Positions 16,030-63,743 of a DNA stretch of 64,000 nucleotides are shown one piece after another. Each line of letters starts with the position of its first letter. The first letter of the stretch is position 1. Source of the stretch: an uncultured Candidatus Saccharibacteria bacterium (GTDB lineage: Bacteria; Patescibacteriota; CPR2_A; CAYFQT01); contig CAYFQT010000024.1 of assembly GCA_964345445.1 (NCBI GenBank), positions 4,634 to 68,633 of the forward strand. The letters are read 5' to 3'. A model generated the notes under the pieces. That model did not search any database, was not told the origin of the DNA, and was given only the letters and a program-made list of their open reading frames with translations. The position numbers and the translations under genes were made by a program.

Positions 16030-16121
16030 CTCACTGTTACAGACTATCACTCACAAATATTAGTAACAGTGAGTAATATGTTAGTTAAAGTGAATAACAG
16101 TGGTTTTTATCGGAGATAAAA
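16030..16121 (+). repeat. Family-3 element
   Basis: ctcactgttacagactatcactcacaaatattagtaacagtgagtaatatgttagttaaagtgaataacagtggtttttatcggagataaaaATG. Confidence 0.75.
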
Positions 16122-17704: not shown

Positions 17705-18004
17705 TCATAGATAAGAAGCAAAAATCCTAAATACGAAATTCTAAACCCTAAACAATATCAAATTACCAAATGACCAAAATACCAAAGGGCTGAAGAACAA
17801 AGATTGTTATTAAGCTTACCTTTAGGAAATCGGAGGGTTATTACATTAATAATTTATTTAGTTTAGAACATTTGAATTTAGATATTAGGATTTGTTTAGA
17901 AATTAGATATTAGAAATTAGTATTTATTTCATCATATTGAGAAGTTAAGTTATATTTTTATATATGATAGTAACATAAGTTAGTGACCAAATTAGTAACT
18001 CATT
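17705..18004 (+). repeat. Family-5 element (aaaatcctaaatacgaaattctaaaccctaaacaatatc ... gaatttagatattaggatttgtttagaaattagatattagaaattagtattt)
   Basis: Left and right arms reverse-complementary. Fills the rpsI-cdaA spacer. Confidence 0.7.
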
Positions 18005-25979: not shown

Positions 25980-26060
25980 GTGTCAGACGTGTCAGATATA
26001 TTAAGTGTTTCAAAGGCTGTTATATTATATCCTTTGATACCCATAACACTTGTGATGTTT
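25980..26060 (+). repeat. Family-2 element upstream of minus-strand lepB
   Basis: tgtgtcagacgtgtcagatatattaagtgtttcaaaggctg...cctttgatacccataacacttgtgatgtttatgat. Confidence 0.65.
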
Positions 26061-26217
26061 ATGATAATTTAATTATACTGTAGAGATTATAGCATAAAAA
26101 TGCTTATCTTTCAATTTTTTTCTATTGTTTTTACTTTTTTTATGTTATAATATTCTAAGCCTAACTAATATGATGGGTCTTAATTTTTATATTTTAGTTT
26201 TTTAAAGGAATATATAA

Positions 26218-29265: not shown

Positions 29266-29345
29266 ATATAAGTGTCGAAAGTATCAAAGGTGCCACAGGT
29301 GTCAGAAACATCAAAAGATATATAGTAATGTCTGATATTTTAATT
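29266..29345 (+). repeat. Family-2 element
   Basis: taagtgtcgaaagtatcaaaggtgccacaggtgtcagaaacatcaaaagatatatagtaatgtctgatatttt. Confidence 0.65.
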
Positions 29346-34351: not shown

Positions 34352-34600
34352 TTTTACCTCTCTATTTCCGATTAACTTTTGTTAATCGGAACGAGCCGTT
34401 CTAGTCGCTTGCAAGCGACTAGAAATAGGCCGAAAAACACGGATTTACACAGATTTTTTATGGATAGCCACTGATCACTGATTTGGTCCATTACTCGTTA
34501 TCCGTTATTAGTTATCCGTGATCTGTGGCTATCAGTGATTTACCTGCCTGCCGGCAGGTCCGTGGCTATCTGTGGTAGAGCAGTGAAACTGCTACATATA
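34352..34600 (-). repeat. Family-1 element in minus orientation forming the 5' leader of rpmE
   Basis: Reverse complement reads gtagcagtttcactgctac (hairpin) caccacagatagccacggacctgccggcaggcaggtaaatcactgatagccacagatcacggataactaataacggataacg...aaatcagtgatcagtggctatccataaaaaatctgtgtaaatccgtgttttt...gagaggtaaaaATG. Confidence 0.8.
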
Positions 34601-36284: not shown

Positions 36285-36387
36285 AAAATAAGGTGTCAAA
36301 TGTGTCAAAAGTATCAGAGGTTATTATAATATCTTATGATACTTGTGATACCTTTGATACTTATGATACCTGCAAGGTAGGAGCATT
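36285..36387 (+). repeat. Family-2 element
   Basis: aaggtgtcaaatgtgtcaaaagtatcagaggttattataatatcttatgatacttgtgatacctttgatacttatgatacctgcaaggtaggagcattATG. Confidence 0.8.
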
Positions 36388-38440: not shown

Positions 38441-38542
38441 TAAGAGTATAGGTGTCATAAGTATCATTGGTGTCAGAGGTGTCAGTTATATAATATGATA
38501 CTTTTGATACATCTGACACATTTGACACCTTTAGAGTTTTGT
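38441..38542 (+). repeat. Family-2 element
   Basis: ataggtgtcataagtatcattggtgtcagaggtgtcagttatataatatgatacttttgatacatctgacacatttgacaccttt. Confidence 0.8.
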
Positions 38543-42407: not shown

Positions 42408-42611
42408 TCACAAAAATAATCAATTAAGAAACAAAATCCTAAATCCGAAATCCTAAATACTAAACAATTTCAAAATTCCAATATTCTAATGTTCTAAACA
42501 TTTGTTTTGGTCATTTGGATTTTCCGCCAGAGGCGAATCAGCCTTTGGCTGAAGATATTAGGATTTGTTTAGGATTTAGTGCTTAGAAATTAGATATTAT
42601 TTTCTTATATT
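42408..42611 (+). repeat. Family-5 element
   Basis: aaaatcctaaatccgaaatcctaaatactaaacaatttcaaaatt ... gatattaggatttgtttaggatttagtgcttagaaattagatattattttc. Confidence 0.7.
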
Positions 42612-43418
42612 ATGCGAAAAATATTTACTAAACATTTTATCTTATTTATTATTCTTATAGCAGTTTGTATACTGCTTATTATTTTATATCAGATAAGTTT
42701 TTTAGCTCCGGTAAATAGTGTAGTATATAAAATAACTGTTCCTTTTCGGGTTGCATTTATAAAAATATCTGATACAATTTCTGGAAACTTTAACATTATT
42801 TTTACAGCCAAAAACCTGCAGAAAGAAAATCAAGAGTTAAAAAAACAAGTTGATGAACTTACTGCTGAAGTATCTCAATTGAAAGAGTTTAAAGTAGAAA
42901 ATGAAATTTTAAGAAAACAATTAGATTTTGCTCAACATGAAGAATTTATGTTAGTTCCTTGTGAAATTATAAGTTATGAGCCTAGTAATTTTTTAAAAAA
43001 TTTTGAAATTAATAAAGGAAAAAATCAAGGAATAGATGAAAAAATGGCTGTAATTTCCTCAGGACTTTTAGTAGGGCAGGTAATTGAAGTGAGTGATGAT
43101 TTTTCTAAAGTTTCTTTGATTACTGATTCTGAAAGTAAAATAGGGGGGATAGTTCAAGATACCCGAGCTACAGGAATAGTAAAAGGGCAACTGGGCTATG
43201 GAATAGTAATGGATTCTATTCCTCAAGATGAATTAATAGAATCAGGACAGAAAGTAATTACTTCTGGTTTAGGCGGAGAAATGCCCAAAGGAATAGTTAT
43301 CGGCTATATCCAAGATATTTCTGGAAAACCTACTGAAGTTTTCCAACAAGCTACTGTACGTCCGGCAGTAGATTTCCGACATCTAGAGATGGTATTTGTG
43401 ATAGTGGGAAGTAAGTAA
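42612..43418 (+). CDS. mreC: Rod-shape determining protein MreC
   Basis: N-terminal TM, coiled coil (LQKENQELKKQVDELTAEVSQLKE), C-terminal beta domain. Position between mreB and mreD. Confidence 0.75.
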   Translation: MRKIFTKHFILFIILIAVCILLIILYQISFLAPVNSVVYKITVPFRVAFIKISDTISGNFNIIFTAKNLQKENQELKKQVDELTAEVSQLKEFKVENEILRKQLDFAQHEEFMLVPCEIISYEPSNFLKNFEINKGKNQGIDEKMAVISSGLLVGQVIEVSDDFSKVSLITDSESKIGGIVQDTRATGIVKGQLGYGIVMDSIPQDELIESGQKVITSGLGGEMPKGIVIGYIQDISGKPTEVFQQATVRPAVDFRHLEMVFVIVGSK

Positions 43419-43570
43419 AAAGTATCAAAGGTGTCAGATGTATCAATAAAAAAATGTCAAGCGTGTCAAATATGTCAGAAGTGTCAAATGTTATTATATA
43501 TTCTTTGACACCATTGATACCTGTGATACTTTTGATACCTATTATTAATGCTTATGATACTTGTTATTTT
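43419..43570 (+). repeat. Family-2 element (longest instance)
   Basis: aaagtatcaaaggtgtcagatgtatcaataaaaaaatgtcaagcgtgtcaaatatgtcagaagtgtcaaatgttattatatattctttgacaccattgatacctgtgatacttttgatacctattattaatgcttatgatacttg. Confidence 0.8.
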
Positions 43571-44224: not shown

Positions 44225-46204
44225 ATGAAAAAAAATAACATTTTTGGAGAACATTACGAAGGTATTTCCAAAGATAATAAAAAAAGATTTATTGATGGAA
44301 ACATTGATAATTTAGAAGAAGACTGGACAGATGCATTAACACATTCAGATGAAGAAATGCCTGAAAGTGAAACAAAAGTTAGTTTTAGGAGCATCGTTTT
44401 CTTTCATCTGGTTATTTTTTTGATTTTTGTTTTTTTATCTTCTGGACTCTGGTATCTTCAAATTTTAAATGGAAAATATAATCTTTCTTTAGCTGAAGGT
44501 AATCGCATCCGTACAACAACCGTAAGAGCTAAAAGAGGAATAATCTATGATAGAAACAAAAAACAACTTACAGAGAATACCCCTAACTTTGAAATCAGTA
44601 TAGTTCCCGCAGATTTACCTAAGGATGAAAGCCAAAGAGATAATTTTTATAATAATCTAGCAGCAGTTTTAGGGATAGATCCCCAGGAAATTAAAAAAAT
44701 GGTAGAAGAAAAAGGATATGATACCTATGAACCTGTAATAATCAAAAAAGATGTAGACAGAGATACTAAGATGATGTTTGAGCTTAAACATAATCAGTTT
44801 TACCAGGCTCATTTATCTGAAAATCCTACCCGAGAATATACCGAAAAAAATATATTTTCCCATATTATTGGTTATATAAGTAGGATTGATGAGAAAGAAC
44901 TAGAAGAGAAAAGAAATTCTCCCGAAGAAGCTGATATTAATTATGCTTTGAATGATTATATTGGCAAAACTGGTTTAGAATATTCTTATGAATCTACATT
45001 ACATGGGAAAAATGGAAGAGAAAGGGTAGAAGTAGATGCAGATGGAAAAGTAATCAAGGTTCTAGCTTCAGAACCACCCCAGCCAGGAGAAAGTCTGGTC
45101 CTATCTATAGATTCTGATTTGCAAAAAGAAGTAACTAAATATTTACAAGAAGGAATTGCTAATGTTAGGTCAACTTCTGGGGCTGCTGTTGCTTTAAATC
45201 CTCAGACAGGGGAAGTTTTAGCTTCAGTTTCTCTGCCAGATTTTGATAATAATTTGTTTGCTAAAGGTATATTGCCTGAAGATTACCAGAGCCTACTTAT
45301 TGATTCTAAAAAACCTTTATTTAATAGAGTAATTTCTGGCACTTATCCTTCTGGATCCACTATTAAGCCAGTTGTTGGGGCTGCAGGTCTTCAGGAAGGA
45401 ATAATAAGTTCAGGTTCATATATTCACTGTCCAGGGGTGATTGAAGTTCCTAATCAATATAATCCGGAAATTATTTATAAATTTCCCTGTTGGAATTTAG
45501 CAGGGCATGGCTCAGTTGCTATAATTGATGCTATTGCCCAATCTTGTGATGTGTTTTTCTACACGGTAGGTGGAGGATATCAAGGAAGAAAGAGTTTGGG
45601 TTTAGAAAAACTTAGACATTATATGGCCCTTTTTGGACTGGGGGAGCAGACAGGTATTGATTTACCTAATGAAGATTCTGGGTTGGTTCCTTCCGAGGAA
45701 TGGAAAATAAATGCAAAGGGAGAAACTTGGTATCAAGGAGACACTTATCATATGTCTATAGGGCAAGGAGATCTCCTGGCTACCCCTTTACAAGTGGCAA
45801 ATTTCACAGCAACTGTTGCCAATGGTGGTAAATTATATAAACCTCAGGTTGTTCGTCAAATAATAGATGTAAATGGTCAGGTAACAAGAGATTTTACTCC
45901 TTTTGTAATTCGAGAAAATTTTATTTCTGAAAGTAACATTAATCTTGTTCGTCAAGGGATGCGCAAGGTAGTGACATCAGGCACTGCCAGGAGCTTAAAT
46001 TCCTTACCTGTTCCTGCAGCTGGAAAAACAGGTACAGCTGAATATGGATTTTATGGTGAAAAAAAGCATGCTTGGTTTACTTGCTTTGCTCCCTATGATA
46101 ATCCTCAAATTGCTTTAGTTGTTTTAATTGAAGGTGGGGGAGAGGGTCATGATGCTGCTGTTCCCGTAGCCGGTAAAATATTACAATATTATTTCACCCG
46201 TTGA
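44225..46204 (+). CDS. mrdA: Penicillin-binding protein 2 (elongation transpeptidase)
   Basis: Dimerisation domain YLQILNGKYNLSLAEGNRIRTTTVRAKRGIIYDRN. Transpeptidase motifs SGSTIKP (SxxK), SIGQGD and KTGTAE. ATG 44225 follows RBS ccggaggtg; the track start 44135 overlaps mreD. Confidence 0.85.
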   Translation: MKKNNIFGEHYEGISKDNKKRFIDGNIDNLEEDWTDALTHSDEEMPESETKVSFRSIVFFHLVIFLIFVFLSSGLWYLQILNGKYNLSLAEGNRIRTTTVRAKRGIIYDRNKKQLTENTPNFEISIVPADLPKDESQRDNFYNNLAAVLGIDPQEIKKMVEEKGYDTYEPVIIKKDVDRDTKMMFELKHNQFYQAHLSENPTREYTEKNIFSHIIGYISRIDEKELEEKRNSPEEADINYALNDYIGKTGLEYSYESTLHGKNGRERVEVDADGKVIKVLASEPPQPGESLVLSIDSDLQKEVTKYLQEGIANVRSTSGAAVALNPQTGEVLASVSLPDFDNNLFAKGILPEDYQSLLIDSKKPLFNRVISGTYPSGSTIKPVVGAAGLQEGIISSGSYIHCPGVIEVPNQYNPEIIYKFPCWNLAGHGSVAIIDAIAQSCDVFFYTVGGGYQGRKSLGLEKLRHYMALFGLGEQTGIDLPNEDSGLVPSEEWKINAKGETWYQGDTYHMSIGQGDLLATPLQVANFTATVANGGKLYKPQVVRQIIDVNGQVTRDFTPFVIRENFISESNINLVRQGMRKVVTSGTARSLNSLPVPAAGKTGTAEYGFYGEKKHAWFTCFAPYDNPQIALVVLIEGGGEGHDAAVPVAGKILQYYFTR

Positions 46205-46272
46205 TATAAATATCAAGGTTCAAAAATCAAAATTTAAAATGTAAAATATATATTTGATTTTTTAATAAAACT

Positions 46273-46301
46273 CTTGACATGTTTAAAAAAATTTGCTAAT
46301 A
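46273..46301 (+). promoter_or_regulatory. Sigma70-type promoter (TTGACA-17-TAATAT) with extended AACTCTTGACA box, driving the 46.3-47.65 kb ORF-free region
   Basis: aaactcTTGACAtgtttaaaaaaatttgcTAATATcag. Confidence 0.5.
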
Positions 46302-46309
46302 TCAGACCC

Positions 46310-47350
46310 TACTGACTAATTTTTGAAATTTGACAAAGAATTAATAGTTTGTTAATATATTTTTTACATAACGAACATTGAAAATTAATATATAAATGTC
46401 TTCCATTTTAATCTAGCGAGAGGCAAAAATTGCTGGCTCGAGGAATCGGATCTGGCTCAGTATCTGAGCCGGGCCGCATTTTGCGCTTGATTCTATTCGT
46501 ACTATTAAATCGCTGAAAAAGAGCCAGCTTTCCTACTAGCTATCTTCGCGTCAGTTGTCTATAGTTTTCAATTATGTATAGACAGTTGCATACATGCCCC
46601 AGTTAACTGGATATATAGAATTGCATGTATGAGCGTGGCGCGTCAATGATCTGTAGTTGTCAATTATGTACAGATGGTTGCATATATGCCCCGGAATATC
46701 CGGATAGGTAGAATTGCATATGTGAGCCCAAGCTAGTAGGAAATATGATGAGAGGGGAAGGGAGACTCTGTTCTGGAAGGAATAAAAGGGTTTTAGGCTA
46801 AATATTCAGGGAGAGTACTGTTCTCTTGACAGTTGCCAGGCATTATAGATCAAATGTTGAATCTCTTCTTGGGCATCTTTTTTACTTAGAAAAAATTTGA
46901 GTCTTGTTCAACCAGCCCAGAAGAACAAGATTTATACCCCTCTCATTACCTTTTTTGATTTCAGTTTGGACTGGGTGGTAAGTAAAATTATAGGAAAGGT
47001 GGCATAACCTCCTGAGATTTCAAAATTGGATATTTTTATTAAGCCACCCAGTCCACCAAAGTTGTACCTGGGGATTGTAAGTGATGGGTAGGGAAGTCCG
47101 AACTTCTCCATCCCCGATAATTTCGTCCGAAAGGACTAGGAAAAAGCGGACTAACCCAGGCACATACTTAGCAACAGATTTGTTTTTTGCAGCTTTATAT
47201 CTAAGGATATAAGGTGCTAGGGTGTAATTTACAAGCTGTTGCTGGACATTTCTTATTGTGATAAAATTCGCCGCGTGTAACACAGGGAGAAAGGGAATTT
47301 TGGAGATTTCCCTAGTGATTGAAAAAATTTTCCTTCTCTCTGGTCAACTC
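46310..47350 (+). ncRNA. Candidate large structured non-coding RNA or very long structured 5' leader (ORF-free, GC-elevated)
   Basis: No credible ORF over ~1.3 kb; local GC is well above the ~30% background. Immediately downstream of the consensus promoter. Many perfect hairpins: 46454-46470; the domain 46532-46740 with two covarying modules; 46903-46929; the 11-bp inverted repeat 46968-46978 / 47044-47054. Confidence 0.35.
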
Positions 47351-47424
47351 AACAGCAAAGATGTAGTGTTTTTGCACAACATTTCCCATCTTTGCTGTTT
47401 TTTAAATCTTCAATATTATCTTGT

Positions 47425-47470
47425 AAATATATAAAAGTATCGCGGTCGCGATAAAATAATATATTTTGAT
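47425..47470 (-). repeat. Third, inverted copy of the AT-flanked cgcg-core element (aaagtatcgcggtcgcgataaaataatatatttt)
   Basis: Near-identical to the reverse complement of copies A/B (one substitution in the core). Contains the quasi-palindrome ATCGCGgtCGCGAT. Confidence 0.7.
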
Positions 47471-47507
47471 ATTTTAAGTTATTGTTAAAAAGACAGTTTA
47501 ATGCTAT

Positions 47508-47654
47508 ACTTTTTAATAATGGAAACTCTGCGGGCAAATACCCGCATTTTCCCAAAGAAACTGTTTTCTTATTGTACCGAGAAAATTTTACCAAATTCTC
47601 CCATAGTTTATGCCAAGATTTTTATTCGGTACAGTATAAAAGGAGCATAGATTT
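47508..47654 (+). promoter_or_regulatory. Leader RNA element copy A (aaactctgcgggc...acccgcattttcccaaag...tgtaccgagaaaat...cggtacagtataaaaggagc) upstream of folD
   Basis: Homologous to 49276-49466. Stem gcggg/cccgc. Stem tgtaccgag/tcggtaca flanks the RBS. Confidence 0.45.
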
Positions 47655-54175: not shown

Positions 54176-56737
54176 ATGGGAATTTTAGGTAAAATAATGG
54201 GAGATCCTAATAAGAAAGTTTTGGATAGGCTACAGCCACAAGTTGATAAGATAAATGAACTAGAGCCAGAATTTGAAAGACTGAAAGATGGGGATCTTCG
54301 TAAGAAAACTGATGAATTTAAAAAACGCCTTAAGGAAGGTGAAACATTAGATGATTTATTATCGGAAGCATTTGCAGCAGTAAGAGAAGCATCTAAAAGA
54401 ACCATTGGCCAGCGTCATTTTGATGTACAGCTTTTGGGAGGAATTGTTTTACACAAAGGAATGATTGCCGAAATGAAAACTGGTGAAGGAAAAACATTGG
54501 CCGCTACCTTACCTTTATATTTAAATGCTTTAAGTGGCTGTGGCACTCATGTTGTTACTGTCAATGATTATTTAGCCAAGCGAGATACCCAATGGATGGG
54601 TCCTATTTATAATCTGTTAGGTTTATCTTGTGGCTGTATTCAGCATGAAAAAGCCTATTTATTTGAAGATCGGGGGGAGAAAGGATTGGAAGGAGAAAAC
54701 AATTTAGTGCCAGTAGAAAGGAAAGAGGCTTATAATGCCGATATTACTTACGGCACTAATAATGAATATGGCTTTGATTATCTAAGAGATAATATGGTAT
54801 CAGATATTTCCCAATGTTCACAAAGAGAACTTTTCTATGCCATTGTTGATGAAATAGACAGTATTTTAATTGATGAAGCGCGAACTCCCCTTATAATTTC
54901 TGCTCCTGCTGAGGAGTCAACGGAAAAATATTATCAATTTGCTCGGCTTGTTCCTAGACTTATAGAAAATATAGATTACAATATTGATGAAAAAATGAAA
55001 GCAACAACTTTAACTGATTCAGGAATTTCTAAAATGGAACAATGGTTAGGTGTAAAAAATATTTATACAGAGAGAGGGATAGAAGATGTGCATCATATTG
55101 AGCAAGCATTAAAAGCGCATACTTTATTTAAAAAAGATCGGGATTATGTCGTTCGTGATGGAGAAGTGGTTATTGTTGATGAATTTACTGGAAGATTAAT
55201 GTTTGGACGGAGATATTCAGAGGGCTTACATCAAGCCATTGAAGCGAAAGAGAAAGTGGAAATTAAAAAAGAAAGTAGAACCCTAGCTACAATTACTTTT
55301 CAGAATTATTTTAGAATTTATAAAAAACTTGCCGGAATGACTGGTACAGCAGCAACAGAAGCCGAAGAATTTCATAAAATTTATAATTTGGATGTGGTAA
55401 TTGTTCCCACTAATAAACCAATGATCCGTGATGATTTTCAAGATAAGATTTATAAAACAGAAGAAGCTAAGTTTAAAGCAGTAGTTGAAGATATTATCAC
55501 CCATCACGGACAAGGTCAGCCAGTTTTGGTGGGAACAGTATCTATTGAAAAAAATGAACTTTTAGGAGATATGCTTAGGCGAAGAGGAATTCCTTATGAA
55601 ATTTTAAATGCCAAAAATCATGAAAATGAAGCAAAAATTATTGCCCAGGCTGGAAAGGTAGGGTCAGTTACTGTGGCTACTAATATGGCTGGACGAGGTG
55701 TAGATATTATGTTGGGAGGTAATCCTCCAGATCAAAAAGAGCATGAAAAAGTTATCTCCCAAAGCGGTTTATATGTAATTGGCACAGAAAGACACGAAGC
55801 TCGGAGGATTGATAATCAACTGCGAGGTCGTTCAGGACGTCAAGGAGATCCCGGCTCTTCTTGTTTTTATGTATCTTTGGAAGATGACCTGATGCGACTT
55901 TTTGGTTCAGAAAAGGTTGCTTCCATTATGGAGCGCCTTAGATTTCCAGAAGACCAGCCTATTGAACATTCTATAATAACTCGTTCCTTAGAATCTGCTC
56001 AAAAGAAAGTGGAAGGACATAATTTTGATATTAGAAAACATCTTTTAGAATATGATGATGTAATGAATAAACATAGGGAAGTAGTTTATAAAAAAAGAAG
56101 AGAAATTTTAAAATCAAAAAATTTAAAATCAGAAGTTCAAGAGATGATAGAAAGTGAAATTAACGAATCAGTTTCTATTCATTTTTCAGAAAATAGAAAA
56201 GAAATTTATGAAATTTTAAACACTATTTTTTCTTTATCGGATGAGGCAAAAGAAAAAGTAGAAAAAGCACGAGAACAAGAAGAATTAATTAAATATTTAA
56301 AAGACCAGGCACAAAAATCATATGATGAAAAGGAAAAAGAATTAGGAGAAGAAACAATGAGATTTTTAGAAAAAGCACTAATGTTGCGCAGTATTGATAC
56401 TTTATGGATAGAACACTTGGAGATTACAGATGCTTTACGAGAAGGGATTTCACTCCGGGCATATGGTCAAAAAGATCCTTTGGTGGAATTTAAAAAAGAA
56501 GGCCACCTGATGTTTCAGAAACTTCTTGCTAATATTCAAAACAATGTTGTTTACTCTATTTATAAAGTAAATGTTATAAAAAAACCTTCTCTAATGGAAA
56601 GCCAGCAGATTCGTGAAAGTCGAGGAGGAGAGGGGGGAAGAAGACAGGAGGTAAAAAGAGAGGGTGAAAAAGTAGGCCGTAATGACCCCTGCCCTTGTGG
56701 AAGTGGAAAGAAATATAAAAAATGCTGTGGAAAATAA
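54176..56737 (+). CDS. secA: Preprotein translocase ATPase SecA
   Basis: MKTGEGKTL is Walker A. The DEAD-like motor, preprotein cross-linking domain and HSD/HWD domains are present. C-terminal zinc finger [14 protein letters not shown]. Confidence 0.95.
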
Positions 56738-56791
56738 TCTAATCTAGAAATATAAAATATAAATAGAGAATATTATTATTAATAATAAATA

Positions 56792-56831
56792 ATATATAAA
56801 TATACCGCGACCGCGATAGAAATATATATTT
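56792..56831 (+). repeat. 40-bp direct repeat, copy A (atatataaatataccgcgaccgcgatagaaatatatattt)
   Basis: Identical to 57464-57503. GC core ccgcgaccgcg sits in pure AT context. Lies 40 bp upstream of the PaaX-like gene. Confidence 0.85.
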
Positions 56832-56870
56832 ATATAAAAAGTATAAAAGTATAAAAAAATAGGAGTTATT

Positions 56871-57425
56871 ATGAAACTTACTCTTACTGAAAAATTATTA
56901 ATTGTTCTAAATGAAATTTTTGAAGATATAGATGATGTAGTCACCACGCATACCTGGAATGATTATTTTAAAAAAATATACAATAAGACACCTGTTAGAG
57001 AAAGAGTAAGATCAACAATTCAATATTTGGAAAAAAAGAAATATGTTGAGGTATATAAGGGAGAAAAAGGAAAATTATATAAGATTACTCCATATGGTAG
57101 AAATAAAATTCGTAGTTATATATTTTCTGAAGAAAACTGGGACAAAAAATGGAGGATTGTTATATTTGATATTCCGGAAGACAAGAAGAATGATAGGGAT
57201 TATTTTAGATATAAATTAAAAGAATTAGGATTTAAAAAATTACAAAAGAGCGTCTGGGTTTGTCCTTTTGATATAATAGATGAAACAAAAGAATTAGTAA
57301 ATAAACTTAGAGTAAAATCATATGTAAAATGTATATTGGCAGACTATATTGATGATCAAGAAAAATTTCTATCTAAATTTATAGTTGATAATAAATCATT
57401 AACAGTAAAGAATAAAAAATATTAA
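56871..57425 (+). CDS. PaaX-like regulator: N-terminal winged-helix plus C-terminal Cas2/VapD-fold (PaaX_C-like) domain
   Basis: N-terminal wHTH-like segment STIQYLEKKKYVEVYKGEKGKLYKITPYG. C-terminal WRIVIFDIPEDKKNDRDYFRYKLKELGFKKLQKSVWVCP matches the Cas2/PaaX_C beta-alpha-beta pattern. The gene is bracketed by identical 40-bp direct repeats. Confidence 0.6.
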   Translation: MKLTLTEKLLIVLNEIFEDIDDVVTTHTWNDYFKKIYNKTPVRERVRSTIQYLEKKKYVEVYKGEKGKLYKITPYGRNKIRSYIFSEENWDKKWRIVIFDIPEDKKNDRDYFRYKLKELGFKKLQKSVWVCPFDIIDETKELVNKLRVKSYVKCILADYIDDQEKFLSKFIVDNKSLTVKNKKY

Positions 57426-57463
57426 AAATTTTAAGAATATTATTAATATATAAAATATATAAA

Positions 57464-57503
57464 ATATATAAATATACCGCGACCGCGATAGAAATATATA
57501 TTT
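57464..57503 (+). repeat. 40-bp direct repeat, copy B
   Basis: Identical to copy A. Lies 39 bp downstream of the PaaX-like gene stop. Confidence 0.85.
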
Positions 57504-57696
57504 GAAATTTTTGAATTTACAACCAATTTTAGTTTTTTAAATTTATAAAGAATTTTTCTAAGATTTTTATCTGTTTGATAAAAATCTTTTTTTATATTTG
57601 AATAGGTTTTTTAAATTATATAACTTTTATATTAATTTTGGATAAGGGCTTGAAAACCCTTATAAATAGGCAAAAAAAAGTTTTTTAAAAAAACTC

Positions 57697-57725
57697 TTGA
57701 CAAGTGAAGAATAATTTGTTACAAT
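57697..57725 (+). promoter_or_regulatory. Consensus sigma70-type promoter (TTGACA-17-TACAAT) with extended AACTCTTGACA box
   Basis: aaaactcTTGACAagtgaagaataatttgtTACAATact, preceded by an A/T tract. Confidence 0.55.
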
Positions 57726-57731
57726 ACTATC

Positions 57732-58139
57732 TTCTAAATTAAAAATAAAATAATACAAAAACCCTTCTATGTTTCTGCGGACAAGAAAGCTTTGGAGGAC
57801 AGTCCCTAAACCAAAAATCAATTCAGGGCAAGCAGAAACAAAAAACAAAAACCAACAAAATACAGTTTTGAGTTTGAGTATTTAGTCTGAGTTTATTTAT
57901 ACTCATAGTTCCAACTCTAAGCTCAAAACTACACCGTTGGTTTTTTAATTTGCACATTAAATTTTTTATCTTGTTTTTATCTTATCTCGATCTTTATCGA
58001 GATGACGTGGGGGCGTTGAACTATGATCTGTAATTGGTCACTTGGATTATAGGGAGCCAGTAGTGAAACCGGCCACAAATTAGCTTTTAGCACTTAGCAC
58101 ATAGTGCTTAGCTAAAAGATATAAAGGCCGGTTTTTTTA
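57732..58139 (+). ncRNA. Candidate small/medium non-coding RNA transcribed from the 57697 promoter and ending at the 58068-58139 terminator
   Basis: No ORF. 5' stem gtttctgc...gcagaaac encloses ggac...gtcc. Hairpin atctcgatctttatcgagat. Terminal hairpin aaaccggcc...agcttttagcacttagcac atag tgcttagctaaaag...ggccggttttttt. Confidence 0.3.
58068..58139 (+). terminator. Long compound terminator hairpin
   Basis: aaccggcc ... ggccggtt plus a U7 run, with the inner perfect stem agcttttagcacttagcac / gtgcttagctaaaag. Confidence 0.5.
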
Positions 58140-58404: not shown

Positions 58405-58664
58405 GATTTTGTTGTTAAGGACGAAAAGGACGAAAATATCAAAAGATGAAAACTTTTTACCCTGATGCTCTCCAACTCTGGAGGAGCATTCTGGCCCAGA
58501 AGGGAAAAGTGGAAATCTTTTGTTAAGTTTTACTGTTTGGCTTCCGTATTTAATTTACGGAAATTTGATCCAGAGTCGAAATAGATGTTTTTGGTTCGAT
58601 GGTACAGTCCATCGAACTGTAGATCTAGTCGAAATTTCTGATTTAAAAGGAAGGAGTGAAGAAC

Positions 58665-60035
58665 ATGTCTATAAAAGACAGATTGTCGAGTTTTTGGGGC
58701 TGGCTGAGAAGATTGCGCCGTGAGACGCGAAGCCAGCTTAAGCTCTGTTGGATTCCGTTTACAGCAGTTGTAGTAATGTTAGCAGTAATAGCTAGTACAA
58801 ATTATTATGCTATAGCGTCAGTTAGACAAACACCAGCTGAAGCAAAAGAAATTTTAAAAGACATCAAGACAGAACGAAAAACATTCAAGCAAGATATGCG
58901 TAGGGAACGAGAAGCCTTTTTTGAAGAGTTTAAGAAGGCACGAGAGGAGCAAGGAGCTAAAACTGAGGTAGTTGAAACAACTGAAGCAAAAGCAACCCAG
59001 GCAGCGGCAGTTCAGGTGACTGAGGAGTATCCATTAATGATGAGTGGAATCCCCTGTGAAATGACAGCAAAGAACATTAAGAAATTAGTGGCGGCACAAC
59101 CTGTGGCGATCCAGCAGGCTTACAATGATCGGGCACAGAGCCTGGGATATTCTGACTTTCAGAGTATTCCTAAAGGTGATATGAGTTTTGAAACCCTTCA
59201 GTATGGAGGGATGTATAAAAACTCATATTACAAAGGTGGGGTAGTGCGCTTCGTCCGGATGTATATTGCATCTGGTACCCCTGTTCTAGTAGTAGAGGGT
59301 AATGTTTTCGCCAAGACTAATTGCGGAAACATTTTGTACCCAGCACCAGCTCCAAAACCAGCCCCGAGTCGGAGAGTTGTGCACAGAGTAGAGCGGGTGG
59401 AAGTCAAGGAATATGAGACAGTCATTATTCGTATTTTTGAGAAAGAAGAATATATAGAGAAGATTGTCAAAGTTCCTTGTGAAAAGCCTGTTGTAGAACA
59501 AAAACCTTGCCAGGTTCCACCACAGTTTCCACCAACTCAGGAACAGAAGGATTTCGAGCAAGAGCAAAAAGATAAAGAGCCTACAAAGAAGCCTTGTCCT
59601 CCTAAGGAACCAAAACCAAAAGAGCCGCAAGAACCTCAAGAACCTCAGGAGCCACAAGAACCAGACCAAAAGCAAGAGCCTGATCAGAAACAAGAACCTG
59701 ATCAGAAACAAGAACCAGACCAAAAGCAAAAGCCAACAGTAACGCAGAATCAAACTGAAGTTCAGCAGGATCAGAAGCAGGATACAAAACAGGAAGAACA
59801 GCAAGTACAGGAACAAAAAGAACAGCCGACAAAACAAGAATCAACAGTAAAACAGCAAGAAGAAACAAAACAGGAGCAGCAGCAATCACCAAAGCAAGAA
59901 ACTCAGCAACAACAGACCCAGACTCAGCAAAAGCAAACTCAACAACAGAACCAGCAACAACAGAACAATCAGCAGAATCAACAGCAAAATCCAGTACAAC
60001 AAAACTCGGTACAGCAAGCACCAAACACAAGTTAA
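58665..60035 (+). CDS. Hypothetical signal-anchored secreted protein with globular central domain and long P/E/Q/K-rich low-complexity C-terminus
   Basis: TM at WIPFTAVVVMLAVIAS. Repeats PKEPQEPQEPQEPQEPDQKQEPDQKQ then a poly-Gln tail. Region GC is higher than the genome background. ATG 58665 follows RBS aaggag. Confidence 0.5.
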   Translation: MSIKDRLSSFWGWLRRLRRETRSQLKLCWIPFTAVVVMLAVIASTNYYAIASVRQTPAEAKEILKDIKTERKTFKQDMRREREAFFEEFKKAREEQGAKTEVVETTEAKATQAAAVQVTEEYPLMMSGIPCEMTAKNIKKLVAAQPVAIQQAYNDRAQSLGYSDFQSIPKGDMSFETLQYGGMYKNSYYKGGVVRFVRMYIASGTPVLVVEGNVFAKTNCGNILYPAPAPKPAPSRRVVHRVERVEVKEYETVIIRIFEKEEYIEKIVKVPCEKPVVEQKPCQVPPQFPPTQEQKDFEQEQKDKEPTKKPCPPKEPKPKEPQEPQEPQEPQEPDQKQEPDQKQEPDQKQEPDQKQKPTVTQNQTEVQQDQKQDTKQEEQQVQEQKEQPTKQESTVKQQEETKQEQQQSPKQETQQQQTQTQQKQTQQQNQQQQNNQQNQQQNPVQQNSVQQAPNTS

Positions 60036-60362: not shown

Positions 60363-60374
60363 ATGGAGGTGAAC

Positions 60375-62123
60375 ATGAATAGAAAATTTACAAAACTAAA
60401 TAAATTATCTCAGAAGGCAATTATACTTTTGTTAATTGTCAGTTTAGTTATGCCTGCTGGTTTAACTTGGGCAGGGAAAGTTGTTTATGCAGCGACCGGA
60501 ACTTCTAAAGTTACTTTGTCAGCCAATCCTCAGATAATCACAGCCGGTCAAGCATCTACCTTATCAGGACAACTTTCTCCCTATCATTCCGGGGTATATA
60601 TTTATCTATATTATTGGAATGGTTCAAATTGGGTTTTAGTTGAGAAGAAAAAAACTGATAGTTATTCTAAATTTTCATTTCAAGTAAAACCTACAAAAGA
60701 TACTTATTACACAGCCCTATGGGCTGGAGATACAGATCATAATTGGTCATATTCTGAATATATAAAAGTTAAGGTGCAGCAGGAAACCAGAGAGTCTCAA
60801 ATTACTTTATCAGCCAATCCAGATGTTGTTGCCCCAGGCGAATATTCAGTTTTATCCGGAACACTGTCTCCTTCACATAATAATATTTCTGTTTATCTAT
60901 ATTATTGGGATGGTTCTGATTGGAAATATTTAACTCAGACTAAGACTAATCTTAATTCCAAATTTTCCTTCACTGTAAAGCCTACTCAAGATACTTACTA
61001 TACAGCTTTATGGGTAGGTGATTCTGACCATAATTGGTCCTATTCTGAATATATCCAAGTTAAAATTCAACAGGAAACTTCAGAGTCTCAAATTACTTTA
61101 TCTGCTAATCCTCAAACTGTTCAACCTGGGCAACAGACAACTTTATCTGGAGAGATTTCCCCATCACATCCTAATGTACAAGTCTATTTATATTATTGGA
61201 ATGGAGAAGATTGGGTTTATATACAAAATACAAAAACTAACAGCCAATCTAAATTTTCTTTCACAGCCGAACCTCAAAATAATACTTATTATTGTGCCTT
61301 ATGGTCTGGGGATTCAAGTCACTCATGGGCTTACTCAGAATTTGTCTATGTAACTGTTGAGGAAGATGGGGGAGGAACATCTTATGTTCCTTGGTCAGGA
61401 TGGTGGTGGCCATATTTAGATACAATTAACCCTAATCTTTATGATTCAGGCGGTCCTTTGGATAAATATGATAAATATGTAGGAAATACCCGAGGATATA
61501 ATCCTTCAAGTCGCAGTTGGGAATATGGCAATCACTATACTTTAAATCCTTCAGCCACCTGGTGGGGACATTGCCATGCGCTGGCTGCTGCATCTATCTT
61601 GGAGCCTGAACCTAGAACAAATCGTAATAAAGGAGGGATTTCCTTCCAAGTTGCCGATCAAAAAGGAATGATAACAGAATTATATTATAGTCCTCAATCC
61701 TTGATGTGGGGAGATAGATATGGTGATGGAAGAGGTTCAGAAGATTTTTCTGATATTGCTCCAGGTGCTTTCCATAGCCTTTTGTTAAATTATATTAAAA
61801 GCCAGAAGAAGTCCTTGGTTTTCGATACCAATGCTGGATATCAAGTATGGAATTTCCCTGCTTATAAATATAGTATGACATCTCAAGAAGAAGGTGGTCG
61901 CACATATTATACAACAACTGTTTGGTTTGCAAATTACACAAGCCCTAATTCTGTAGGAACTAGTTCATTTACCAAGACATACACTTATTGGATTTCCGGC
62001 AATCAAAGCGGCTGGACAGGGTCAAGTATAAATGATCATCCAGATTTTGTATGGTTGCCTACTGGTAGATATCAGCAAGGGAATCCAATAAATTACAATA
62101 TTGTTAAAGAAATATTAAATTAA
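60375..62123 (+). CDS. Secreted protein: signal peptide, three tandem ~97-aa Ig-like repeats, C-terminal transglutaminase/papain-like Cys-core domain
   Basis: Signal peptide KAIILLLIVSLVMPAGLTWA. Three repeats of ...TLSANP...TLSG.LSP.H..V.IYLYYWNG.DW...TKT...SKFSF...P..DTYY.ALW.GDS.H.W.YSE... The C-terminal domain contains WWGHCHALAAAS, a G-x-C-x-x-L-A transglutaminase-like catalytic Cys context. Confidence 0.55.
   Translation: MNRKFTKLNKLSQKAIILLLIVSLVMPAGLTWAGKVVYAATGTSKVTLSANPQIITAGQASTLSGQLSPYHSGVYIYLYYWNGSNWVLVEKKKTDSYSKFSFQVKPTKDTYYTALWAGDTDHNWSYSEYIKVKVQQETRESQITLSANPDVVAPGEYSVLSGTLSPSHNNISVYLYYWDGSDWKYLTQTKTNLNSKFSFTVKPTQDTYYTALWVGDSDHNWSYSEYIQVKIQQETSESQITLSANPQTVQPGQQTTLSGEISPSHPNVQVYLYYWNGEDWVYIQNTKTNSQSKFSFTAEPQNNTYYCALWSGDSSHSWAYSEFVYVTVEEDGGGTSYVPWSGWWWPYLDTINPNLYDSGGPLDKYDKYVGNTRGYNPSSRSWEYGNHYTLNPSATWWGHCHALAAASILEPEPRTNRNKGGISFQVADQKGMITELYYSPQSLMWGDRYGDGRGSEDFSDIAPGAFHSLLLNYIKSQKKSLVFDTNAGYQVWNFPAYKYSMTSQEEGGRTYYTTTVWFANYTSPNSVGTSSFTKTYTYWISGNQSGWTGSSINDHPDFVWLPTGRYQQGNPINYNIVKEILN
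60507..61375 (+). repeat. Three tandem ~291-bp repeats inside the CDS, encoding Ig-like modules
   Basis: DNA and protein self-similarity: ...actttatcagccaatcc... x3 and ...tattattgg(a/g)atgg... x3. Confidence 0.75.
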
Positions 62124-63005: not shown

Positions 63006-63743
63006 ATGAAAAGATTAATTTCTATTTTAAAAACAGCAAAGATTGATGAAGCCACAAAAGAGAGATTTAAATTGGCAGAGGCAAAATTTGCTTATCGTTT
63101 AGGCAAAAGCAGGAAAATAGTTGCTGTATTAGTTGTTATTTTGTTTGTGGCTCAAATAGGAGTTGGCATTAGTCAGAGTATGGCCTCAGGCGAGGAACCT
63201 AATAAGACTCAAAAGGTAGAAGAGAAAAAACCTACTCAGCCAGAGCAACCTGACAAAAAAGGTGAACCTACTCAACCAGAAAAACCGCAAGAGCCTGAAA
63301 AACCTCAGGAACCAGAAAAACCGCAAGAGCCTGAAAAACCTCAGGAACCTGAAAAACCGCAAGAGCCTGAAAAACCTCAGGAACCAGAAAAATTAAAACC
63401 AGAATTACCCAAAATAGAAGAACCAATAATTGAAAAGAAACCTCAATTGCCTAAGATAGAAAAACCAGAAGAACCCAAGATTCCTCAGCCACCTGTACCA
63501 TCTCAAGATCAGCAGCAACAAATTCAGCAAGAACCAGAGAAACCTCAAGAACCACAGGAGCCACAAAAGCCTCAGGTTCCTTCAGAGCCAGAACCACAGG
63601 TTTTAGGTACTAAGACTCTGCCCCGAGTAGGAGCAGGTTTAAACATCTTATTAGGAATTTTTCTGGTATTAGCTAGTGGATATCTTTATTTTCGAGAGAA
63701 AATTTTATTTAAGTTAGCTTTAAAGAAGGTAAAAGTTAATTAA
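63006..63743 (+). CDS. Proline-rich surface protein with (P)EKPQEP tandem repeats and C-terminal LPxxG-type sorting-signal-like anchor
   Basis: N-terminal TM. At least 6 copies of EKPQEP encoded by an 18/36-bp DNA repeat. The C-terminus is LPRVGAG + hydrophobic stretch LNILLGIFLVLASGYLYF + basic REK, resembling a sortase substrate cell-wall sorting signal. Confidence 0.55.
   Translation: MKRLISILKTAKIDEATKERFKLAEAKFAYRLGKSRKIVAVLVVILFVAQIGVGISQSMASGEEPNKTQKVEEKKPTQPEQPDKKGEPTQPEKPQEPEKPQEPEKPQEPEKPQEPEKPQEPEKPQEPEKLKPELPKIEEPIIEKKPQLPKIEKPEEPKIPQPPVPSQDQQQQIQQEPEKPQEPQEPQKPQVPSEPEPQVLGTKTLPRVGAGLNILLGIFLVLASGYLYFREKILFKLALKKVKVN
63276..63392 (+). repeat. Tandem 36-bp (2 x 18 bp) repeat encoding (EKPQEP)n
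   Basis: ccagaaaaaccgcaagagcctgaaaaacctcaggaa repeated about 3.3 times with perfect identity. Confidence 0.8.

What the first reader, a model, noticed from the sequence alone, without database searches (positions are those of the whole stretch)
56792..57503. PaaX-like (wHTH + Cas2-fold) gene precisely bracketed by identical 40-bp direct repeats; third inverted copy 9 kb away
atatataaatataccgcgaccgcgatagaaatatatattt occurs at 56792-56831, 40 bp before the start codon, and again at 57464-57503, 39 bp after the stop. The two copies are perfectly identical. A third, inverted, one-substitution copy sits at 47425-47470 between the large ORF-free region and the folD leader. The core is a GC island in pure AT DNA and contains the quasi-palindrome ATCGCGgtCGCGAT. 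Two interpretations are possible. It may be a small mobile or recombining gene cassette whose direct repeats are att-like sites or target duplications. Or it may be an operator bound by the encoded winged-helix regulator, which is autoregulated at both ends and also acts at the 47.4-kb locus. The protein's C-terminal Cas2/PaaX_C-like fold is notable: the organism has no evident phenylacetate pathway or CRISPR locus in view.
Basis: seen in the sequence. Interest (0 to 1): 0.65.

Follow-up and report, generated by a model that had tools for sequence, protein, structure and literature searches.

The report
Mini-PaaX repressor gene flanked by its operators
A small DNA-binding protein gene in an uncultivated Patescibacteria (CPR) genome sits between two identical 40-bp palindromes that are most likely its own binding sites, and the same site-gene-site arrangement, with a different palindrome each time, recurs in about two thirds of the homologous genes examined, which had not been described in the literature I could search.

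Summary
Identical 40-mers lie at 56792-56831 and 57464-57503, and a related site lies at 47426-47465. The gene (56871-57425) encodes a winged-helix domain plus a PaaX_M/Cas2-like domain. It lacks PaaX's effector domain.

The pattern holds across the family:
- In 71 homologous loci, mostly CPR metagenome contigs, 68% share a locus-specific word of at least 12 nt between the two flanks.
- The figure is 3-6% in controls.

The shared element is a palindrome of about 40 bp. It has 6-8-bp outer arms about 26 bp apart, A/T-rich spacers and a GC-rich core. This matches the geometry of the E. coli PaaX box, TGATTC(N27)GAATCA.

Several results favour double-stranded DNA operators over att sites, target duplications or RNA hairpins:
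- The sequence differs from locus to locus, but the two copies within a locus match.
- The upstream copy usually overlaps the best promoter candidate.
- There is no strand bias in hairpin stability.
- The spacers show the least mirror symmetry.

A syntenic relative (SecA 85% identical) lacks the whole module. Its counterpart of the third site has also decayed. A 76% homologue sits in a different junction that is empty elsewhere, so the module is gained and lost as a unit.

Best reading: a self-contained autoregulatory mini-PaaX module. It is a new variant of a known kind.

The parts
56792..56831 (.). Upstream 40-bp palindromic element (U). Core TACCGCGACCGCGATA at 56803-56818. Outer arms ATATAT at 56792-56797 and 56824-56829.
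   Evidence: Exact 40-mer. Member of the family-wide class of 40-bp palindromes.
56861..56865 (+). Shine-Dalgarno-like AGGAG, 5 nt before the ATG.
   Evidence: Read directly from the sequence.
56871..57425 (+). Gene for a 184-aa mini-PaaX: N-terminal winged helix plus PaaX_M/Cas2-like ferredoxin-fold domain, no PaaX_C.
   Evidence: PF20803 at 3.3e-27. TIGR02277 scores 41 bits against a 264.55 cut-off; cas2 TIGR01573 scores 31.1 against 24.5. AF2 model pLDDT 81. Best Foldseek hit is E. coli PaaX 8a39.
57464..57503 (.). Downstream 40-bp palindromic element (D), identical to U. It starts 38 nt after the stop codon.
57561..57593 (+). Intrinsic terminator (AGATTTTTATC / GATAAAAATCT followed by a T-run). 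In the relative L106 the same terminator directly follows secA.
   Evidence: Sequence. Alignment with L106.
47426..47465 (.). Third element (site C). Core TATCGCGGTCGCGATA at 47438-47453. It lies between the terminator of the upstream ORF-free region and the folD promoter.
   Evidence: Degenerate in L106.
47482..47510 (+). Likely folD-operon promoter (TTGTTA-17-TATACT with TG), conserved in L106. It starts 17 bp after site C.
47353..47403 (+). Intrinsic terminator that ends the ORF-free region upstream of site C (CAGCAAAGATG / CATCTTTGCTG followed by T6).
   Evidence: Sequence. Conserved in L106.

Best explanation
The gene encodes a 'mini-PaaX': a winged-helix DNA-binding domain fused to the Cas2-like dimerisation domain of PaaX-type repressors, without PaaX's C-terminal effector domain. 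The two 40-mers, and the related third site, are its cognate operators.

Proposed mechanism:
- Each operator is a ~40-bp palindrome with outer arms about three helical turns apart. This is where the two winged helices of a PaaX-type dimer would sit. The GC-rich palindrome at the dyad lies under the conserved Cas2-like dimer core.
- The upstream site covers the gene's own promoter, so the protein represses its own synthesis.
- The downstream site, placed right after the stop codon whatever the neighbouring gene is, acts as a second operator. It would work either by cooperative looping over the ~650-bp gene or as a roadblock that insulates the gene from neighbouring transcription.
- The third site extends control to the folD...secA operon.

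Protein and sites co-evolve rapidly, and the site-gene-site unit is gained and lost as one block.

What is shown here (computationally): the repeats, the protein fold, the family-wide bracket, the geometry, the promoter overlap, the absence of an RNA signature, and the presence/absence pattern.

What is inferred: binding itself, repression, looping or roadblock, and control of folD.
For: 1. Identical 40-mers flank the gene, and the core occurs 3 times in 64 kb against 0.03 expected.

2. Protein identity. PaaX_M scores 3.3e-27. The AF2 model shows three helices plus a beta wing, then a beta-alpha-beta-beta-alpha-beta fold. The best structural match is E. coli PaaX 8a39, followed by Cas2 proteins. 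A profile of the family matches the AspA, PadR and MarR winged helices and PaaX residues 56-172.

3. Family-wide bracket. Of 71 homologous genes with both flanks available, 68% share an exact word of at least 12 nt between the upstream and downstream 300 nt.
- Cross-locus pairings give 3.2%.
- 330 other genes in the same loci give 5.8% (Mann-Whitney p=4.5e-22).
- At 14 nt or more the figures are 49% vs 0.4% (cross-locus) and 50% vs 2.4% (other genes in the same loci).

4. Anatomy of 88 sites.
- Mirror symmetry is strong at positions +-1-5, with C at -3 and G at +3 in 91% of sites.
- It is strong again at +-12-18 (0.70-0.84 observed vs 0.27-0.38 expected).
- It is weakest in the 86-94% A/T spacer at +-9-11.
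- It falls to background beyond +-21.
- This matches the E. coli PaaX box TGATTC(N27)GAATCA, and PaaX represses its own promoter Px (review PMC9493321).
- Window: ATATAT-N26-ATATAT. L103: ATCAAT-N26-ATTGAT.

5. Sites differ between loci, but the two copies within a locus are 66-86% identical across +-5-18.

6. In about half of 33 loci the best sigma70-like promoter overlaps U, in one of two fixed registers: either the -35 hexamer is the right outer arm, or the core lies between -35 and -10.

7. No RNA signature. Sense and antisense hairpin stability do not differ (U 17:23, D 20:15). In the window the antisense hairpin is the more stable one. Site C lies between a terminator and the next promoter.

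8. The relative L106 (SecA 85% identical, fully syntenic) lacks the gene and both 40-mers. Its counterpart of site C has lost the palindrome, while the flanking terminator and promoter are conserved.

9. Extra copies are rare (8 in 434 kb) and mostly intergenic.
Against: - No binding experiment exists. Everything here is comparative.
- In the window itself no convincing promoter could be placed relative to U, because the DNA is extremely A/T-rich.
- The role of the downstream site is not explained by any tested property. There is no helical phasing of U-D distances.
- In the outer arms, G:T mirror mismatches outnumber A:C (42 vs 17, non-independent counts). This weakly hints at a strand-specific constraint.
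- The central palindrome has no counterpart in the described PaaX box.
- U and D are identical even at spacer positions in the window. That also fits recent copying or gene conversion.
- The protein has no recognisable effector domain, so what it senses is unknown.
- Whole-module presence/absence, and a 76% homologue in a different junction, also fit a mobile unit.
- The window's genome could not be searched beyond these 64 kb.
Confidence: 0.7

Rival explanations
1. The site-gene-site unit is a small mobile or selfish element. The palindromes are its ends, and the winged-helix/Cas2-like protein is a site-specific nuclease or recombinase that acts on them.
For: - The whole module, including both sites, is absent from the syntenic secA junction in L106.
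- The 76%-identical homologue sits between fmt and DHH (L103/L104/L001). That junction is empty in syntenic L107/L108.
- No conserved neighbour gene was found across 55 loci.
- The family keeps the Cas2-type Asp (FDIPE), which E. coli PaaX lacks, and it scores above the NCBIfam cas2 cut-off.
- Assemblies break or gap at the module (L001 and L104 start at U; there is an N-run in L002).
Against: - No transposase or recombinase domain was found in Pfam, NCBIfam, PADLOC or PHROGs.
- No target-site duplication, and no solo end, is visible at the empty site.
- There is one copy in the 64-kb window. Only 1 of 85 loci has a second family gene, and that one is 50% identical, not a copy.
- The position next to secA is kept at 50% protein identity (L003), and also occurs in L035.
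- U overlaps promoter elements.
- The element has the geometry of the operator of a known repressor family.
- Only one hit was found in 2.9 million viral contigs.
Confidence: 0.1
2. The elements act as RNA. Hairpins in the 5' and 3' untranslated regions of the mRNA serve as terminators, stabilisers or processing sites, and are bound or cut by the Cas2/VapD-like domain.
For: - The palindromes can fold (mean MFE -14.7 kcal/mol for 44-mers).
- D lies in the 3' UTR position, ahead of the terminator at 57561-57593.
- The terminator scan picks up the core hairpin, but on the - strand.
- G:T exceeds A:C among mirror mismatches in the outer arms (42 vs 17).
- Cas2 and VapD relatives include RNases (one search hits 3exc, 3ui3).
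Against: - Sense and antisense hairpin stability show no bias. In the window the sense hairpin is the weaker one (-7.2/-8.7 vs -12.0/-12.5 kcal/mol).
- Spacer positions +-9-11 show the weakest mirror symmetry of the whole element (z 2.6-5.1, against 9-10 in the outer arms), so there is no continuous stem.
- Most mirror mismatches are transversion-type: 317 against 72 G:T.
- Site C lies between a terminator and the next -35 hexamer.
- U overlaps -35/-10 elements in many loci.
- Where orientation can be read it is not fixed: 10 direct, 3 inverted.
Confidence: 0.07
3. The sites are centromere-like or chromosome-organising sites for a segregation-type winged-helix protein of the AspA/TubR kind, rather than transcriptional operators.
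For: The best PDB sequence matches of the family's winged helix are AspA (6.5e-5), with TubR also listed. Both bind palindromes next to their own genes.
Against: - No ParA- or TubZ-type partner, and no conserved neighbour of any kind, was found.
- The loci are chromosomal housekeeping regions.
- The structural best match over both domains is PaaX.
- The sites are single units rather than arrays in most loci.
Confidence: 0.04
4. The 40-mers are target-site duplications or att sites left by integration, or just another of this genome's many intergenic repeat families that happens by chance to flank this gene.
For: - The two copies are perfectly identical and in direct orientation.
- The window is full of other intergenic repeat families.
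Against: - Homologues elsewhere carry the same architecture with unrelated sequences: 68% against 3-6% in controls.
- The elements are structured palindromes, not arbitrary target sequence.
- The empty site in L106 holds no copy of the 40-mer.
- No integrase is present.
Confidence: 0.02

Closest known systems
PaaX, the phenylacetyl-CoA-responsive repressor of E. coli and Pseudomonas (PDB 8a39; TIGR02277), and its PaaX box
   Same: - Winged helix followed by the PaaX_M/Cas2-like domain, with a WD(K/G)KW motif.
- Best structural match of the model.
- Operator built from short inverted repeats about 26-27 bp apart, roughly 39-40 bp in total.
- The repressor gene has an operator at its own promoter (PMC9493321).
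   Different: - No PaaX_C effector domain, and only 41 bits against the 264.55 equivalog cut-off.
- No paa genes nearby.
- An additional GC-rich palindrome at the dyad.
- A second operator directly after the stop codon.
- Keeps the Cas2-type FDIPE Asp, which E. coli PaaX lacks.
- Site sequence differs in almost every locus.
Cas2 (CRISPR adaptation protein) and VapD
   Same: - Ferredoxin-like fold with an Asp at the end of strand 1.
- Scores above the NCBIfam cas2 cut-off, and some sources annotate homologues as Cas2.
- Like the repeats Cas1-Cas2 acts on, the associated DNA elements are partly palindromic repeats of about 30-40 bp (my own knowledge; a resemblance only).
   Different: - Fused to a winged helix.
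- No cas1 and no repeat-spacer array in the window.
- The repeats bracket the protein's own gene.
- No evidence of nuclease or integrase function.
Lambda-type immunity regions and other looping repressors (CI with OL/OR; GalR OE/OI; LacI O1/O2)
   Same: A repressor uses operators on both sides of a gene or gene block. The promoter-proximal operator gives autoregulation and a distal one acts as an auxiliary operator (my own knowledge; an analogy for mechanism only).
   Different: An unrelated protein family. Here each operator is a single ~40-bp palindrome, the loop would enclose only the repressor's own ~550-bp gene, and cooperativity is untested.
REP/RAYT units (REPtrons) and TIR-bounded insertion sequences
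   Same: A gene bracketed by palindromic repeats that its product is thought to recognise. The unit shows presence/absence between relatives.
   Different: - No HUH or DDE domain.
- No dispersed high-copy repeats: 8 extra copies in 434 kb.
- No target duplications.

Membership tests
PaaX-type repressors | Central PaaX_M (Cas2-like) domain, PF20803 | tested here: met
   94.8 bits against a cut-off of 24, E=3.3e-27, residues 88-163.
PaaX-type repressors | N-terminal winged-helix DNA-binding domain | tested here: met
   - AF2 model: helices 5-19, 26-37 and 43-55, plus a beta hairpin at 59-72.
- Profile hits to the AspA, PadR, MarR and ArsR winged helices, and to PaaX 8a39 residues 56-172.
- The Pfam PaaX_N model itself did not score. 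Only weak HTH_34 and PadR hits were found.
PaaX-type repressors | C-terminal PaaX_C effector (phenylacetyl-CoA) domain, PF08223 | tested here: not met
   No hit. The protein ends about 20 residues after PaaX_M. A minority of homologues do carry PF08223.
PaaX-type repressors | NCBIfam equivalog TIGR02277 score above cut-off | tested here: not met
   41 bits against 264.55.
PaaX-type repressors | Linked to phenylacetate catabolic (paa) genes | tested here: not met
   Neighbours here and in syntenic loci are folD, greA, lysS, serS, hpf, secA and a c-di-GMP-II riboswitch gene. The rest of the genome was not available.
PaaX-type repressors | Operator of short inverted repeats about 27 bp apart (PaaX box TGATTC-N27-GAATCA) | tested here: met
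   Mirror symmetry peaks at +-12-18 across 88 sites. Window: ATATAT-N26-ATATAT. L103: ATCAAT-N26-ATTGAT (box quoted from PMC9493321).
PaaX-type repressors | Protein binds the box and represses transcription, including its own | not testable with these tools
   Positional evidence only: U overlaps the best promoter candidates in about half of 33 loci.
Cas2 (CRISPR adaptation) | Cas2 fold and sequence signature | tested here: met
   TIGR01573 scores 31.1 bits against 24.5. PF09827 scores 23.8 against 23.8. Foldseek hits to several Cas2 structures.
Cas2 (CRISPR adaptation) | Encoded next to cas1 and a CRISPR array | tested here: not met
   No repeat-spacer array in 64 kb. Neighbours are housekeeping genes. 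No conserved neighbour across 55 loci.
Transposable element bounded by terminal repeats | Recognisable transposase or recombinase | tested here: not met
   None in Pfam, NCBIfam, PADLOC or PHROGs.
Transposable element bounded by terminal repeats | Target-site duplication; empty site lacks the element | tested here: inconclusive
   An empty site exists (L106) and lacks the whole unit, but no duplication or microhomology is visible in the A/T-rich junctions.
Transposable element bounded by terminal repeats | Several near-identical copies per genome | not testable with these tools
   - The window's genome is absent from the searchable collections.
- There is one copy in 64 kb.
- One of 85 loci has a second family gene, at 50% identity.
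REP/RAYT | Many dispersed copies of the palindrome in the genome | tested here: not met
   Eight extra copies in 434 kb of loci, and one extra in the 64-kb window. No multi-hit genome in the genome-contig scan.

The most novel reading that the evidence does not exclude
The site-gene-site unit may be a selfish or recently domesticated mobile module. In it, a winged helix targets a Cas2-like metal-dependent nuclease to ~40-bp palindromic ends, placing the conserved Asp pair of the dimer over the GC-rich dyad. That would be a new class of minimal element. It would also be a living example of a Cas2-fold protein that recognises partly palindromic repeats on its own, which bears on how Cas2 and CRISPR repeats came together.
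Probability: 0.08. Interest if true: 0.85.

Novelty: new variant of a known kind. Interest (0 to 1): 0.55.

Why it matters
Transcription factors of Patescibacteria (CPR) are almost unstudied, because the organisms are uncultivated. This work pairs a large protein family with predicted DNA sites that can be read directly from each genome.

- Family size: 1,421 clusters at 50% identity score 1e-30 or better, and 6,852 score 0.001 or better.
- This gives dozens to hundreds of candidate repressor/operator pairs with different specificities. They can be tested in E. coli with synthetic DNA and could be useful as orthogonal parts.
- It corrects database names, which currently read 'Cas2' or 'PaaX'.
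- It shows an unusual design in which a regulator's gene is enclosed by its own operators and travels with them.
- It also poses a clear question: what does the conserved Cas2-like domain do when no effector domain is attached?

Tried and rejected
1. A genome-wide search for the motif (WWWTAYCGCGACCGCGATANWW) in 185,579 species genomes gave 18 single hits in unrelated taxa, about the ~17 I estimated by hand for chance hits. The window's genome is therefore not in that collection.

2. Exact look-ups failed for the window protein, for its 184-aa cluster mate P0122 and for the 100% SecA match P0124. The source contig (115,690 bp) could not be fetched.

3. U-D distances show no helical phasing (Rayleigh p>0.06 at all periods tested).

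4. Protein similarity barely predicts site similarity across 903 pairs (Spearman rho 0.05 for the N-terminal part and 0.10 for the C-terminal part). Only close pairs are informative:
- L032/L089 have the same arms but a different core.
- L031/L041 have the same core but different arms.
- The window and L001 share 12 of 16 core positions by my own count (sequences).

5. The G:T versus A:C test for RNA pairing gave 72 vs 61 overall. The excess in the arms comes from non-independent counts. The MFE strand test was negative.

6. No conserved neighbour gene was found.

7. Other database searches:
- Viral contigs gave one hit.
- PADLOC gave only Cas2 models.
- PHROGs gave nothing useful.

8. The literature search found no paper linking PaaX with CPR or with Cas2.

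9. A reciprocal empty-site test in the window was not possible, because the window lacks priA, def, fmt, DHH and IF2.

10. I could not decide whether the 76% homologue reflects horizontal transfer, because no gene is shared between its contigs and the window.

11. The promoter scan in the window itself was uninformative in such A/T-rich DNA.
Full report
**Observation.**
The 40-mer ATATATAAATATACCGCGACCGCGATAGAAATATATATTT is present exactly twice on the + strand, at 56792-56831 and 57464-57503. No match occurred in 100 dinucleotide-preserving shuffles. The identity runs to 41 nt, and the similarity to 55 nt at 91%.

The two copies enclose the ORF 56871-57425. There are 39 nt between the first copy and the ATG, and 38 nt between the stop codon and the second copy.

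The core CGCGACCGCG occurs three times in the 64 kb (0.03 expected). The third occurrence is at 47441-47450 on the other strand. That third site, 47426-47465, has a 16-bp core with one substitution (TATCGCGGTCGCGATA). It is 32/40 identical overall, including the ATATAT outer arms.

**The protein.**
The 184-aa product matches Pfam PaaX_M, described as the 'PaaX protein central Cas2-like domain', at 3.3e-27. It has only weak winged-helix hits and no PaaX_C.

In NCBIfam it scores far below the PaaX equivalog cut-off (41 vs 264.55 bits). It scores above the cas2 cut-off (31.1 vs 24.5).

An AlphaFold2 model built on a 35-sequence alignment has mean pLDDT 81. It shows three helices plus a beta hairpin (a winged helix), a linker helix, and a beta-alpha-beta-beta-alpha-beta domain.

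The best Foldseek match in the PDB is E. coli PaaX (8a39, 5.6e-5). Cas2 proteins, VapD and two PaaX-like structural-genomics entries follow. A family profile matches the winged helices of AspA, PadR, MarR and ArsR, and aligns to PaaX residues 56-172. In that alignment WDGKW is shared, but the family's FDIPE motif (the Cas2-type Asp) is not.

The domain is PaaX_M, not PaaX_C.

**Host and locus.**
SecA encoded just upstream (54176-56737) has a 100% match on a 115,690-bp NCBI contig that could not be retrieved. Otherwise its named relatives are all Patescibacteria/CPR. Homologues of the mini-PaaX are likewise almost all from CPR.

The family is large. With the profile, 1,421 clusters at 50% identity score 1e-30 or better, and 6,852 score 0.001 or better.

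The window has no tRNA genes and no CRISPR-like array. The next feature downstream is a c-di-GMP-II riboswitch (58000-58083), behind a strong promoter (57697-57725).

**The bracket is a property of the family.**
The three closest loci already showed it.
- A 99% strain (L002) has the same repeats.
- A 76% homologue (L001, also L103 and L104) is flanked by AAATCAATAAATTTATCACGATCGCGATAAAAAA on both sides.
- A 50% homologue in conserved synteny after secA (L003) is flanked by copies of GTATGCGATCGCA.

I then fetched 80 metagenome loci using the family alignment and measured the longest exact word shared by the 300 nt upstream and the 300 nt downstream of each gene.

| Shared word | Family genes, own flanks | Cross-locus pairings | 330 other genes in the same loci |
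|---|---|---|---|
| at least 12 nt | 68% of 71 | 3.2% | 5.8% |
| at least 14 nt | 49% (50% of 70) | 0.4% | 2.4% |

The Mann-Whitney test against the 330 other genes gives p=4.5e-22. The shared words are specific to each locus.

**Anatomy.**
Centred on their dyad, 88 upstream and downstream sites show the following mirror-complementarity profile:
- It is nearly complete at positions +-1-5, a GC-rich core with consensus RCGATCGY. C at -3 and G at +3 occur in 91% of sites.
- It is weakest at +-9-11, where the bases are 86-94% A/T (0.57-0.64 observed vs 0.38-0.44 expected).
- It rises again at +-12-18 (0.70-0.84 observed vs 0.27-0.38 expected).
- It falls to background beyond +-21.

Identity between the two copies of a locus follows the same limits.

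The unit is therefore a ~40-bp palindrome with 6-8-bp arms about 26 bp apart and a central palindrome. The review PMC9493321 gives the E. coli PaaX binding sequence as TGATTC(N27)GAATCA, and states that PaaX represses its own promoter Px. The arms here have the same geometry: ATATAT-N26-ATATAT in the window, and ATCAAT-N26-ATTGAT in L103. The central palindrome is an addition.

Some loci carry two upstream and two or three downstream units (L032, L089, L084, L062, L090, L003).

**DNA or RNA?**
Four results point to recognition of duplex DNA.
- The spacers show the least mirror symmetry of the element. A continuous stem is therefore not selected.
- Most mirror mismatches are transversion-type (317, against 72 G:T and 61 A:C). 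The G:T excess within the arms (42 vs 17) rests on non-independent counts.
- RNA folding energies of the sense and antisense strands do not differ (U 17:23, D 20:15). In the window the sense hairpin is the weaker one.
- Site C lies between an intrinsic terminator (47353-47403) and the -35 hexamer of the folD promoter (47482-47510). Both are conserved in a relative.

**Position.**
The upstream centre lies a median 48.5 nt before the ATG. The downstream centre lies a median 32.5 nt after the stop. The two are a median 649 bp apart, with no helical phasing.

In 33 loci with a sigma70-like candidate promoter, 16 fall into two registers:
- In the first, the -35 hexamer is the right outer arm, for example TTGACA in L087 and TAGACA in L041.
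- In the second, the core lies between -35 and -10.

These are consensus matches only, but they place U over the promoter.

D is present whether the next gene is co-directional (24 loci) or convergent (10 loci). It therefore belongs to the module rather than to the neighbour.

**Other copies.**
Outside the brackets I found 8 further copies in 434 kb, mostly intergenic. Examples:
- upstream of gap (GAPDH gene) in L035, where secA itself lies between D and the extra site;
- upstream of a YebC-family gene in L046;
- upstream of a permease in L102.

In the window, site C heads the folD-greA-lysS-serS-hpf-secA block, and U follows it.

**Presence and absence.**
L106 (GCA_004196295.1; SecA 85%, lysS 79%, folD 74% identical) is syntenic from PBP2 to the genes beyond the riboswitch. 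It has no family gene and no 40-mer. Window 56774-57540 has no counterpart in it.

The secA terminator directly follows secA in L106, but follows the module in the window. At the place of site C, L106 has GTGGCCGTG, so the palindrome is lost, while the flanking terminator and promoter are conserved.

The 76% homologue lies between fmt and a convergent DHH gene. The syntenic L107/L108 (fmt 57%, IF2 61%, DHH 75% identical) has only 98 bp there.

The module is therefore gained or lost as a unit at two junctions. No neighbour gene is conserved across loci. Direction (insertion or deletion) and horizontal transfer could not be resolved.

**Interpretation.**
The best-supported explanation is a self-contained autoregulatory module.
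- A mini-PaaX dimer binds ~40-bp operators.
- The upstream operator occludes the promoter.
- The downstream operator acts as an auxiliary operator or roadblock.
- Occasional extra sites bring a few other promoters under control.

Binding, repression and the role of D are inferred, not shown. The rapid turnover of site sequence fits a protein that has only two or three sites to keep up with.

The main rival is a mobile unit whose ends are the palindromes. It is kept alive by the presence/absence data and by the retained Cas2-type Asp. It lacks a recombinase, target duplications and multiple copies. RNA-level, centromere-like and target-duplication readings are less likely, for the reasons given under each rival.

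**Comparison and novelty.**
The module works like PaaX and shares two of its three domains and its operator geometry. It fails the equivalog test, lacks the effector domain and is not linked to paa genes. It has the Cas2 fold and signature but no CRISPR context.

I found no paper connecting PaaX with CPR or with Cas2 in the held library. I rate it a new variant of a known kind, of moderate interest.

Noticed in passing
window 4870-4963, 7674-7717, 10951-10994, 12936-13047, 25980-26071, 29263-29307, 36291-36376, 38450-38535, 43404-43554: Intergenic runs of 9-nt periodic words (GTGTCAnnn/GTATCAnnn), each followed by their reverse complement. They form long imperfect palindromes between genes at nine places in the window. 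Function unknown; they may be terminators or binding arrays.
   Followed up: no
window 379-493, 2309-2406, 2785-2883, 3201-3299, 7098-7238, 12680-12811, 13459-13580, 16531-16584, 34434-34553; also 4155-4420, 6014-6150, 7799-7903, 16021-16120; and 9182-9361, 11067-11144, 17721-17938, 42433-42611: Three further families of intergenic repeats recur between genes in the first 44 kb of the window (not annotated here): the AGCCACGGATAAATCACTGATGG type, the TAATAGTGAGT/ACTCACAAT type and the TTAGAAATTAGATATTAG type.
   Followed up: no
window 46204-47403: A 1.2-kb stretch with no ORF and higher G+C (0.39-0.42) than its surroundings. It has two tandem TTGACA-17-TAATAT promoters (46274, 46330) and ends in an intrinsic terminator (47353-47403). 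Blocks of it are 74-77% identical to L106. It has no Rfam match even at E<=1. It may be an undescribed large non-coding RNA.
   Followed up: partly
window 47523-47644: The folD leader carries about 120 nt that are absent from the relative L106. This stretch includes the hairpin CTGCGGGCAAATACCCGCA.
   Followed up: no
window 58000-58083 (promoter 57697-57725): A c-di-GMP-II riboswitch (69.9 bits) lies behind a near-consensus promoter, upstream of the ORF 58656-60035, whose coding sequence contains proline/glutamate/glutamine-rich repeats. The region is 73-80% conserved in L106.
   Followed up: partly
window 59596-59729 and 63229-63596; 60603-61288: Coding repeats. Two ORFs contain 18-nt (PEPK/PQEP-like) tandem repeats, and ORF 60363-62123 contains a 291-nt tandem repeat of 2.4 copies.
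   Followed up: no
L002 1222-1308; L001 and L104 contig starts: Public assemblies gap or break exactly at the module. L002 has a run of N that starts inside the upstream 40-mer. The L001 and L104 contigs begin about 80 nt before their upstream site. This is probably an assembly effect of the repeat or of strain variation.
   Followed up: no
L050 8188-8227; L084 4474-4513: Two extra sites keep the outer arms of their locus's element but have a different central palindrome: CTACGGCCGTAG instead of AACGATCGTT, and CACCATGGTG instead of CGCAATTGCG. This suggests that arms and core can vary independently.
   Followed up: no
L107 9010-9040: At the empty fmt|DHH junction there is a lone 30-nt A/T-rich palindrome, AAAAATATATTGCATCTGCAATATATTTTT, between the convergent genes. 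It is probably a bidirectional terminator.
   Followed up: no
alignment A1 (homologues P0010, P0026, P0054, P0067, P0080, P0103 and others): Many homologues have a hydrophobic, Gly/Ala/Val/Ile-rich N-terminal segment of about 20 residues, and some have extensions of 20-60 residues. The window protein has an amphipathic helix at that position. Whether this segment is a membrane anchor was not examined.
   Followed up: no
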